Of a stretch of 51,026 bases of DNA, positions 9,001 to 12,000 are shown piece after piece. The DNA comes from a virus (Duplodnaviria > Heunggongvirae > Uroviricota > Caudoviricetes). A program made the position numbers. The DNA is taken from positions 1 to 51,026 of the IMG/VR virus record IMGVR_UViG_2671180890_000005; one strand, given 5' to 3'. The first letter of the stretch is position 1; each line of letters opens with the position of its first letter.

Positions 9001-12000
9001 CTTGTCGATCTTTAATATATTGCGCATGATTGTAAGTACCTCGAATAGAGTTCTTATCAACATGCGCAAGCTGCATTTCAATCCAGGCACTTTCAAACCC
9101 ATGCTCATGCAAGATGGTGCTCATGGTATGCCTGAAACCGTGACCCGTTAACCGACCGTGATAACCCAGTAGTTTTATCACTTTGTTGATGCTGGCTTCG
9201 CTCATTGGTTTACTGACGTCATTCCGGCCAGGGAAAACGAGGCTGTAATTCCCTGTTATTTCTTGCAGCTTTTTCAGGATATTGATCGCCTGAGTTGATA
9301 ACGGAACCAGATGGGGGCGGCGTTTCTTCATCCGTTCTTTGGGGATCTCCCATAAGGCATTATCTAAATCAAACTCAGCCCATTCCGCTGCACGTAGTTC
9401 AATTGTTCGCACGCCTGTTAGCATCAACAGCTGCGTGGCGTATTTGGTAACTAAACTGCCCTGATAGTTATCCAGAGCATTAACGAACTCGGGCAACTCG
9501 CTTTCAGTCAGGAACGGGAAGTGTTGGGTTTTAGGTTTGTTGAGTGCGATAGCTAAATCGGGTGCAAAATTATACTTTGCTCTACCAGTGGCAACAGCAT
9601 AACGAAGCACTTCACCACAGCGGCGGCGGATCTTACTGGTTTGCTCTAGCGCACCTCTTTTCTCTATTTTTTGCAGGACGGTTAGCAGTTCTAATGGTTC
9701 AATCTGCTCAATTGGGCGCTGGCCGATAAAAGGAAAAATATCCTTTTCCATACAATTGAGAACCTCTTTTGCATAACCCTCTGACCAGGTGGCTTTTTTC
9801 GATGAGTGCCATTCTCTGGCCACAGACTCAAAGCTGTTCTCATGCGCGAACTGCAAAGCAATCTTATCTGCTTTTCTGGCTTCACTTGGGTTTATCCCGT
9901 TGGCTAACATCGAACGCGCTTCATCACGTTTGGTACGTGCCTGTGCCAACGACACATCGCCATATACGCCAAAGGAAATCATCTTAGGCTTACCTGCAAA
10001 GCGATAGCGAAAACGCCAGCCTTTACTGCCCGCTGTGTCGATCAGGAGTGATAGCCCCATACCATCGTTAAGCGTATAGGGTTTGTCCTTCGGTTTTGCT
10101 CTTTTTATTTGGATGTCAGATAGCAGCATGTGTATAGAAAAAAGATCGAACTCAGTTATACACAATGTTATACGCAAAGATGTATAGATTCCATTAGAAA
10201 TAATGGTACTTTGCTGGACGAGTATAAGGAGATGATATCAGTTAAAACAGTGAGTTATGGAATTAATTGAACTTAGTGAGAAGTGTTCATGGTGTCCCCT
10301 GCAGACATCTACTTGAGGCGGCAGGGGATTGATTGGAATGGTGTTTTTTAGATGTGAGAAATATTTTACCCGCTATTTTACCCATTGGCGCGGCTTAAGA
10401 GCTTATTTTTGAATTCACAATGGTCACGATATAACCATCTTGCTCGCCCGTGGATAACTTTGGCTTTTGGCAGGTCGCCGGACTTAATCCGGTCATAGAT
10501 GAAGGTTTTACCGAAGCCAGTATCGGCCATGATGAATTTCAAATCAACCAGTGAATCAGGTTGTAGTTCGTGTTGCATGAGTGCTATCTCCGAATAGGGA
10601 ATCGAACCTGCAAATCAGGCAATAAAAAACCGCCATCAGGCGGCTTGGTGTTCTTTCAGTTCTTCAATTCGAATATTAGTTACGTCTGCATGTGCTATCT
10701 GCGCCCACAGCATCCAGTGGTCATAGCAGTCGTTGATGTTCTCTGCTTCGATAACTCTGTTGAATGGCTCTCCATTCCATTCACCTGTGACTCGGAAGTG
10801 CATTTATCATCTCCATAAAACAAAACCCGCCGTAGCGAGTTCAGATAAAAGAAATCCCCGCGAGTGCGAGGATTATCATTCATTGTCGATATTCACCTTT
10901 ATAGCGAACACCTTTACCGGTTTATCGCCGAAGTGCGGATGTGTGATTGTCTTGATTTCATATCCGTCATACGGGACGTCAATTCTGCGGCTGGAATCGT
11001 CGCGCTTCGGATATCCCTTTGTGATAATCAGGCGGTCATACTCGCGGAACATAATTCGCTTATTCCAGTAGTCATTACACAGGCGATACTCTTCCGTTTT
11101 CTCTCCGCGAATCATGGCATCGAAGTATTCACCTTTAACGGCAAGTTGCAGGTTAGCCACGACCTTCCTCCTTTGGCTTGTGAATTTGTATCGTCATGCC
11201 GCTTTGAGTGGTGACTACAACGACAGAACCAGGCTGAAGACTGTTAAGATTGAATGCTTCGTAAAACGAAGCCAAGGCCAGCGCTTTTTTATTCTTTCGG
11301 TTCCACCAACGCCATCCATTGCTACAGGCTACACTGACAATCCACTGTCCACTCCTGTAAGCCATATAAAACCAGATGAGCAAAACCTGAAGGAAGGCTA
11401 TCCAGTTAATAATCGTATATTTCGCGAAGTAGTCCATCACTTCACCTCCTGCGGCGGTTCTGGTAGCGGCATCCAGTGTGTTACATTGCTAATCAGACCA
11501 TATTCATTAGTTTGAGGATGCCCGCCGCGATCGTCTCCGTATTTAAAACTTTCCATAAAACCATAATGCTTATCCCCATTAACGCTCACAAAGCCGTAAT
11601 AAGCTGGTATAACGCCGATCTCACACGTAATCAACAAAGGAAAACTAGTTCTCCAATTTAGCTCACCAATTACAGGCATTCGATCACTACAGCTTATCCA
11701 ACTATCCGGAGTTCCCGGAGAGTTGCCATTTACATCGAAGTTTGGCTCTGCGTCCTGAACCAGGAGGATGTAACCATTCTTGGCTGTATCAAGTTCTAAC
11801 GCCTCGGTGACGGTGCCGAAATAGCGATTACCTAAATCAGCATCACAAGTGCTTACATCAATGGAAACTTCCATGCCCTCGATTAATTCTGGCAACTTGT
11901 AAGTTTGGCTTATAGGCTCTGCTTCCAGCGATGCCAGTGCAATTCGTGCCAGTTCCATTTGTTCTCCACGGGTAAGTCCGTTATCAAGCGGATTTTTAAT

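What the first reader, a model, noticed from the sequence alone, without database searches (positions are those of the whole stretch)
10378..10578. Excisionase and integrase at opposite ends of the prophage (TorI/IntS-type module) on a lambdoid/P22-like genome
The TorI-like gene is the leftmost prophage gene and the IntS-like integrase (49869-51026) the rightmost, so att lies between them in the circular form. This is the KplE1-style arrangement rather than lambda's xis-int-att order. The leftward early operon ends in a terminator before torI, suggesting torI has its own regulation.
Basis: partly seen in the sequence, partly recalled or inferred. Interest (0 to 1): 0.4.

Follow-up and report, generated by a model that had tools for sequence, protein, structure and literature searches.

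The report
Known TorI/IntS prophage recombination module
The small gene is an exact copy of TorI, the excision factor of E. coli prophage KplE1. Its partner integrase IntS sits at the far end of a CUS-3-like prophage, a layout already published for KplE1, HK620, Sf6 and CUS-3, so the finding is correct but ordinary.

Summary
ORF 10378-10578 (-) encodes a 66-aa protein 100% identical to TorI (PDB 1Z4H). ORF 49869-51026 (-) is 100% identical to E. coli K-12 IntS. The KplE1 16-nt att core (CTGCAGGGGACACCAT) lies at 10289-10304, just beyond torI, so torI is the last gene of a ~41-kb P22-like, CUS-3-related prophage inserted in argW. The other att copy and argW lie just outside the window's right end.

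Virion genomes of HK620 and Sf6 show the circular order torI - attP - int. Panis et al. 2010 and 2012 already describe this module as conserved in KplE1, HK620, Sf6 and CUS-3.

Two corrections:
1. It belongs to a separate P4-like satellite (window 1-10288) inserted in tandem at the same core, with its own AlpA-type excision gene. It is not TorI's partner.
2. The hairpin before torI is real, but a near-identical hairpin precedes xis in lambda. This prophage carries lambda-type N and nutL, so torI is more likely the last gene of the antiterminated pL operon than an independently regulated gene.

Verdict: already known, low interest.

The parts
10378..10578 (-). torI: 66-aa recombination directionality factor (excisionase), the last gene of the P22-like prophage
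   Evidence: ORF list. 100% identical to TorI PDB 1Z4H. PHROG 66 'excisionase and transcriptional regulator'. DNA near-identical to K-12 torI.
10289..10304 (.). 16-nt att core ATGGTGTCCCCTGCAG (reverse complement CTGCAGGGGACACCAT). It serves as attR of the prophage and, at the same time, as the integrase-side att of the neighbouring satellite.
   Evidence: Only copy in the window. Equals the 3' end of argW and the published KplE1 core (PMC2951348). Three-way alignments place both sequence breakpoints exactly at its two edges.
10305..10383 (-). Prophage attR arm (P arm) with two GGGTAAAA repeats at 10364-10371 and 10376-10383, 12 nt apart
   Evidence: Two mismatches to the K-12 KplE1 attR arm. 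Same as the torI-side arm of HK620 attP. Repeat positions.
10598..10613 (-). 16-mer TTGCAGGTTCGATTCC, an exact copy of the argW T-arm segment that lies immediately 5' of the core in the tRNA. It sits between the hairpin and the torI ribosome-binding site.
   Evidence: Sequence. Annotated as 'attR core' in the CUS-3 record CP000711. Overlaps the 'phage integration promoter / cII site' annotated in HK620. Conserved in K-12.
10627..10646 (-). Intrinsic-terminator-like hairpin plus T-run overlapping the stop of the 55-aa ORF. It marks the mosaic boundary where the TorI module begins.
   Evidence: Near-identical to the hairpin just upstream of lambda xis, and homology to lambda ends at the T-run. 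The matching P22 stretch, which also covers the bases either side of the hairpin (window 10620-10650), carries a 'terminator' annotation in P22 records.
10636..10803 (-). 55-aa ORF, homologue of lambda lambdap35, the gene upstream of torI
   Evidence: PHROG 676. Aligned to lambda.
10823..10874 (-). Two further terminator-like hairpins (10823-10842 and 10853-10874) between the ASCH-like ORF and the 55-aa ORF
   Evidence: dG -11 and -16.2 kcal/mol; z = -3.6 and -4.4.
17505..17831 (-). Lambda-type N antiterminator, first gene of the leftward early operon that ends at torI
   Evidence: PHROG 271. N-terminus MDAQTRRRERRAEKQAQ read.
18030..18060 (-). nutL: boxA-like GGCTCTTA (18053-18060) and boxB hairpin GCCCTGAAGAAGGGC (18030-18044)
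   Evidence: Sequence read. The match to lambda nutL is from my own knowledge of the lambda sequence.
49869..51026 (-). intS: P4-type tyrosine integrase, the first gene at the argW end of the prophage. Its promoter and attL lie beyond the window end.
   Evidence: 385/385 identical to K-12 IntS. argW starts 161 nt beyond it in SF-173.
8954..10129 (-). Integrase of the neighbouring P4-like satellite. It is NOT part of the TorI/IntS module (45% identical to IntS).
   Evidence: Sits directly next to argW in strains lacking the prophage. Window 1-10304 differs by 1 base from the SK1144 satellite.
10130..10288 (-). Satellite integrase-side att arm with TTATACAC-type repeats, which differ from the GGGTAAAA repeats of the phage arm
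   Evidence: Four sites in 159 nt against about 0.1 expected. The same motif occurs twice in the satellite's distal arm in SK1144.

Best explanation
Window ~10289 to 51026, continuing about 180 bp past the right end, is a P22-like, CUS-3-related temperate prophage inserted in the argW tRNA gene. It carries the KplE1/HK620/Sf6-type site-specific recombination module.

In the circular phage the order is torI - attP - intS, all transcribed the same way. Integration at the 16-nt core splits the two genes. intS ends up next to argW (attL), where KplE1 work shows it has its own autoregulated promoter. torI ends up at the opposite end, next to attR.

Excision needs the constitutively low IntS plus TorI, which binds the att arms and directs the reaction towards excision. 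The rate-limiting control is therefore torI expression. In this prophage torI is most likely the last gene of the lambda-N-antiterminated pL operon. Three terminator-like hairpins would shield it from stray transcription in the lysogen.

What is shown here: gene identities, core position, arm identity and gene order. What is inferred from published KplE1/HK620 work: the mechanism. What is my own inference: the route of torI transcription.
For: - TorI is 100% identical to PDB 1Z4H, and IntS is 100% identical to K-12 IntS.
- The core is at 10289-10304. The attR arm differs from K-12's by 2 bases.
- The window's torI arm plus SF-173's intS arm reproduce HK620 attP, including all six GGGTAAAA-type repeats.
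- The HK620 and Sf6 virion records place the attP core between int and hkaC/gene 18.
- SF-173, a CUS-3 lysogen without the satellite, reads dsdC | core | torI ... intS | argW.
- PMC2951348 gives the same core sequence. It says the module is conserved in CUS-3, HK620 and Sf6, that int and RDF transcription are uncoupled, and that control targets the RDF. PMC3509656 calls intS the first gene and torI the last.
- N, nutL, CI, CII and CIII are present. The same hairpin precedes lambda xis.
Against: - attL and argW are outside the window, so the second core copy is inferred from other genomes with an identical right end.
- No experiment on this strain exists. The neighbour on the B side of attR is satellite DNA rather than the usual dsdC flank, which might affect IntS core binding.
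- The route of torI transcription is untested. The HK620 and Sf6 records predict a promoter between the hairpin and torI.
Confidence: 0.93

Rival explanations
1. torI pairs with the integrase immediately downstream of it (8954-10129) in a lambda-like xis-int unit, and the IntS gene at the far end belongs to something else.
For: The two genes are co-oriented and only 248 nt apart (10130-10377), with no terminator-like hairpin between them. Both integrases use the same 16-nt core.
Against: - The att core lies between torI and this integrase.
- Window 1-10304 is identical bar 1 base to a satellite that sits directly at argW, without torI, in SK1144. The integrase-side end alone (window 8900-10304) is 100% identical next to argW in a further 12 listed genomes.
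- torI plus its arm occurs next to dsdC without this integrase in K-12 and SF-173.
- The satellite has its own AlpA-family gene at its other end.
- The arm repeats differ: TTATACAC versus GGGTAAAA.
- Only 12 of 5426 genomes have the juxtaposition.
Confidence: 0.02
2. The prophage boundary is the upstream 16-mer TTGCAGGTTCGATTCC (10598-10613), as annotated in the CUS-3 reference record. On this view torI plus the core is a leftover of an older KplE1-like element and not part of the phage.
For: CP000711 labels this 16-mer 'attR core' and the same sequence in argW 'attL core'. It is an exact 16-nt repeat, which is not expected by chance.
Against: - HK620 and Sf6 virion genomes contain torI and the CTGCAGGGGACACCAT attP core downstream of this 16-mer.
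- The KplE1 core was defined as the other 16-mer, and HK620 substrates recombine with TorI (PMC2951348).
- Every CUS-3-type lysogen inspected has torI next to the core.
- Without torI the phage would have no RDF.
Confidence: 0.04
3. torI is transcribed from its own promoter between the hairpin and the gene, and is insulated from pL by the terminator.
For: The hairpin plus T-run sits at 10627-10646. The HK620 and Sf6 records annotate a cII-dependent 'pI' promoter here. Lambda has its cII-activated pI at the homologous position.
Against: - The putative cII site is TTGC-N5-TTGC, not the TTGC-N6-TTGC of lambda.
- The sigma-70 scan found no promoter-like site in 9800-12500.
- A cII-dependent promoter would serve integration, not excision.
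- N and nutL are present, so terminators are expected to be read through on induction.
Confidence: 0.2

Closest known systems
KplE1 (CPS-53) recombination module of E. coli K-12 (argW-attL-intS ... torI-attR)
   Same: TorI and IntS proteins are 100% identical. The 16-nt core is the same, the attR arm differs by 2 bases, and gene order and orientation are the same.
   Different: KplE1 is a 10-kb defective remnant without an immunity region. Here the module serves a ~41-kb P22-like prophage with N, CI, CII and structural genes. The sequence upstream of torI differs from the T-run outward.
Phages HK620 and Sf6 (Lederbergvirus)
   Same: They show the same torI (hkaC / gene 18) - attP - int unit, the same hairpin and 16-mer upstream of torI, and a surface-polysaccharide-modifying gene or tailspike next to int.
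   Different: The tailspike and conversion genes differ: here an endosialidase and neuO. The early region is mosaic, with 36-56% coverage in the best phage hits.
Phage CUS-3 of E. coli K1 RS218 (CP000711)
   Same: It shares the endosialidase tailspike, neuO with AAGACTC repeats, int and argW insertion. The right end is 100% identical in many K1 strains.
   Different: CUS-3 covers only 39-54% of the window's prophage. The reference record stops at the upstream 16-mer and so omits torI.
Lambda int-xis-attP
   Same: It is a tyrosine integrase plus a small winged-helix RDF. The RDF gene sits at the end of the N-antiterminated pL operon and is preceded by the same ORF and hairpin.
   Different: In lambda attP lies beyond int (xis-int-attP), so both genes stay together at attL. 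Here attP lies between the two genes, so they separate on integration.

Membership tests
KplE1/HK620-type (IntS/TorI) recombination module | The RDF is TorI (66-aa winged-helix protein) | tested here: met
   66/66 identical to PDB 1Z4H.
KplE1/HK620-type (IntS/TorI) recombination module | The integrase is IntS (P4-type tyrosine recombinase) | tested here: met
   385/385 identical to K-12 IntS. Domains.
KplE1/HK620-type (IntS/TorI) recombination module | 16-nt core CTGCAGGGGACACCAT next to torI (attR) | tested here: met
   Exact match at 10289-10304. Core sequence as published (PMC2951348).
KplE1/HK620-type (IntS/TorI) recombination module | A second core copy at the 3' end of argW next to intS (attL) | tested here: inconclusive
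   The window ends at the intS ATG. In SF-173, whose right end is 100% identical, the core and argW follow 161 nt later.
KplE1/HK620-type (IntS/TorI) recombination module | int and RDF at opposite prophage ends, co-oriented, with attP between them in the circle | tested here: met
   Gene order in the window. Arms reconstruct HK620 attP. Virion maps.
KplE1/HK620-type (IntS/TorI) recombination module | Conserved attR arm with its protein-binding repeats | tested here: met
   Two mismatches to K-12. Two GGGTAAAA repeats. Which protein binds them was not tested.
KplE1/HK620-type (IntS/TorI) recombination module | TorI-dependent excision by IntS | not testable with these tools
   Shown for KplE1 and HK620 substrates in the literature. 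Not tested for this strain.
Lambda-type xis-int-att arrangement | xis directly upstream of its own int, with att beyond int | tested here: not met
   The att core lies between torI and the adjacent integrase, and that integrase belongs to another element.
P4-like satellite (left element, window 1-10288) | P4-type integrase, alpha-type primase, Ogr/Delta, AlpA-family RDF, flanked by direct repeats at a tRNA | tested here: met
   The AlpA gene and the distal repeat lie just left of window position 1 and were seen in SK1144.
P4-like satellite (left element, window 1-10288) | Psu/Sid capsid-size genes | tested here: not met
   Neither is among the Pfam/PHROG hits or the SK1144 annotation. Instead there is a P2-family major capsid gene at 884-1888.

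The most novel reading that the evidence does not exclude
By accident, the tandem junction assembles an attP-like unit from two unrelated elements: torI with its arm from the P22-like phage, the shared 16-nt core, and the arm and integrase of a P4-like satellite. No terminator separates torI from the satellite integrase. Induction of the prophage could therefore drive satellite integrase expression, or let IntS/TorI and the satellite integrase cross-react on the three identical cores. That would couple the fates of the two elements. A related open point is the exact argW T-arm 16-mer upstream of torI, which might be a decoy IntS core-type site acting as an operator for torI.
Probability: 0.07. 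Interest if true: 0.45.

Novelty: already known. Interest (0 to 1): 0.12.

Why it matters
The finding confirms a textbook-level but non-lambda design. Because attP lies between the excisionase and integrase genes, integration uncouples them, and control of prophage excision shifts to the excisionase gene. For annotation it matters in two ways. The integrase next to torI must not be taken as its partner. And the CUS-3 reference record appears to stop short of the true attR and so omits the phage's excisionase.

Tried and rejected
- tRNA scan of the window found nothing. argW lies outside the window, and only 16-nt fragments are inside.
- A search for a second core copy in the window, allowing up to 3 mismatches, found none. 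The satellite's distal copy and the prophage's attL copy both lie just outside the window.
- An Rfam scan of 10100-10900 at a permissive E-value gave only sub-threshold chance hits.
- A sigma-70 promoter scan of 9800-12500 found nothing.
- phmmer of TorI and of the satellite AlpA protein against all six-frame ORFs of at least 35 aa found no further xis-like gene. Pfam found nothing for the 98-aa ORF overlapping the intS stop.
- The Menouni 2013 (PMC3761637) and King 2007 (PMC1951898) papers are not held. Statements on Rho control of torI and on how the CUS-3 att sites were defined therefore could not be checked.
- The order of the two integrations (phage into the satellite lysogen, or satellite into the prophage's attR) cannot be decided, because both give the same product.

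Full report
**Observation**

The ORF at 10378-10578 on the minus strand is real: ATG start, 66 aa. Its product is identical at all 66 positions to TorI, the Tor inhibition protein solved as PDB 1Z4H (E = 6.6e-43). PHROGs places it in 'excisionase and transcriptional regulator'.

The ORF at 49869-51026 (-) encodes a 385-aa integrase with Arm-DNA-bind_3, Phage_int_M and Phage_integrase domains. It is 385/385 identical to IntS of E. coli K-12.

**Where the prophage ends**

The sequence ATGGTGTCCCCTGCAG occurs once in the window, at 10289-10304, 73 nt past the torI stop. Its reverse complement, CTGCAGGGGACACCAT, is the published 16-nt KplE1 core (PMC2951348). It is also the 3' end of argW.

From about 50 nt upstream of torI through the core, the window is almost identical to the K-12 torI-attR region, with 2 mismatches in the arm. 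Similarity stops exactly at the outer edge of the core.

The window ends at the intS start codon, so attL and argW are not in it. In strain SF-173, whose tailspike-neuO-intS end is 100% identical, argW begins 161 nt beyond intS. That same strain reads dsdC | core | torI at the other end.

Joining the window's torI arm to SF-173's intS arm reproduces the attP of phage HK620, including two GGGTAAAA repeats on the torI side and four on the int side. The virion-derived records of HK620 and Sf6 place the attP core between int and the TorI homologue, hkaC or gene 18.

A second integrase lies directly downstream of torI and is co-oriented with it: 8954-10129 by the RefSeq start, or 8954-10177 from the first TTG. 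It is 45% identical to IntS. This could be mistaken for a lambda-style xis-int pair, but several results say otherwise.

- The att core lies between the two genes.
- Window 1-10304 differs by one base in 10,304 from a ~11-kb element of strain SK1144 that sits directly at argW with no torI.
- That element is bounded by two copies of the same core.
- It carries a P4 alpha-type primase, an Ogr/Delta gene, an Ash/Icd-like gene and the sce7725/sce7726 pair.
- It has its own AlpA-family excision gene at the end opposite its integrase, just left of window position 1.
- The two arms flanking the single core carry different repeats. The satellite side has TTATACAC-type sites, also present in the satellite's distal arm. 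The phage side has GGGTAAAA sites.
- Only 12 of 5426 complete E. coli genomes have this integrase-torI junction.

The window therefore holds two elements in tandem at argW: a P4-like satellite (1-10288) and a P22-like prophage (10305 onward), sharing one hybrid att site.

No other TorI- or AlpA-like ORF exists in the window. Nothing xis-like lies next to intS: only 239 nt separate it from neuO, and the overlapping 98-aa ORF has no Pfam hit.

**The prophage**

It is a mosaic Lederbergvirus-type genome. It has an endosialidase tailspike (45656-48601), neuO and intS like CUS-3. CUS-3 itself covers only 39-54% of it.

It also has a CI-like repressor, CII, CIII, RecT and a lambda-type N protein. 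A nutL site with boxB GCCCTGAAGAAGGGC lies at 18030-18060.

**The terminator claim**

A hairpin followed by a T-run lies at 10627-10646 on the minus strand, overlapping the stop of a 55-aa ORF. Two more such hairpins lie at 10823-10842 and 10853-10874.

The 55-aa ORF and its hairpin are nearly identical to lambda's lambdap35 and the hairpin just upstream of lambda xis. Similarity ends at the T-run, where the TorI module begins. The matching P22 stretch carries a 'terminator' annotation in P22 records, and Sf6 marks a 'boundary sequence' that ends just short of the hairpin.

In lambda, xis is expressed from N-antiterminated pL transcripts (stated in PMC2951348). This prophage has N and nutL. 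The simplest expectation is therefore that torI is the last gene of the antiterminated leftward operon, and that the hairpins keep it silent in the lysogen.

The HK620 and Sf6 records do predict a cII-dependent promoter between hairpin and torI. But the site is TTGC-N5-TTGC rather than lambda's N6 spacing, and the sigma-70 scan found nothing there. 'Own regulation' remains possible but unproven.

**Comparison with what is known**

Panis et al. 2010 (PMC2951348) state three things:
- integrase and RDF transcription are uncoupled in these phages;
- excision control targets the RDF gene.

Panis et al. 2012 (PMC3509656) call intS the first and torI the last gene, and report 100% identity of TorI with HkaC and P18. 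The finding is thus a correct re-discovery of a published arrangement.

**Side observation bearing on the finding**

The CUS-3 reference record (CP000711) labels a different 16-mer as its att core. That 16-mer, TTGCAGGTTCGATTCC, is the argW T-arm segment immediately 5' of the KplE1 core. An exact copy lies upstream of torI at window 10598-10613.

The record ends there and so excludes torI. Since the HK620 and Sf6 virions contain torI beyond this 16-mer, and CUS-3 lysogens have torI next to dsdC, the record's attR is probably misplaced. Why an exact tRNA-derived 16-mer sits there is unexplained.

**Verdict**

The architecture is already known and of low interest. Two corrections apply: the tandem satellite integrase is not TorI's partner, and the terminator inference is weak.

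Noticed in passing
window 1-10288: A P4-like satellite lies in tandem with the prophage at the same argW core. It is 99.99% identical to the element at argW in strain SK1144. It carries a P2-family major capsid gene (884-1888) preceded by an unassigned 286-aa ORF (1-861). No Psu/Sid genes were found among the Pfam/PHROG hits.
   Followed up: partly
window 7121-8974: An sce7726/sce7725 gene pair sits between ogr/delta and the satellite integrase, the position of P4-type defence hotspots. sce7726 has a modest hit to PADLOC model PDLC02989 'cll' (1e-18); sce7725 has none.
   Followed up: partly
window 10598-10613: An exact 16-nt copy of the argW T-arm (TTGCAGGTTCGATTCC) lies upstream of torI. In the tRNA this segment directly abuts the att core; in the phage the two are separated by torI. 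The CUS-3 GenBank record uses it as 'attR core' and therefore omits torI. The HK620 record reads the overlapping sequence as a cII site. Its origin and function are unexplained.
   Followed up: partly
window 48760-48983: neuO carries 32 copies of the heptanucleotide AAGACTC. The reading frame from the repeat ORF (48755-49039) does not continue into the hexapeptide acetyltransferase ORF (49294-49629), so the gene appears to be in the phase-off state.
   Followed up: partly
window 45656-48601: A 981-aa tailspike has a P22-type N-terminal head-binding region. RefSeq and the CUS-3 record annotate it as an endosialidase (K1 capsule specific).
   Followed up: no
window 17505-18060: The N protein N-terminus (MDAQTRRRERRAEKQAQ) and the nutL boxB are lambda-type, inside an otherwise P22-like genome.
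   Followed up: partly
L010 (SF-173) ~7350; L008 (SK1144) 7410-7470: The attR core of SF-173 has one C fewer (ATGGTGTCCCTGCAG). This is either a real variant or a homopolymer sequencing error. The satellite's distal arm in SK1144 contains a run of about 12 CCCAG pentanucleotide repeats.
   Followed up: no
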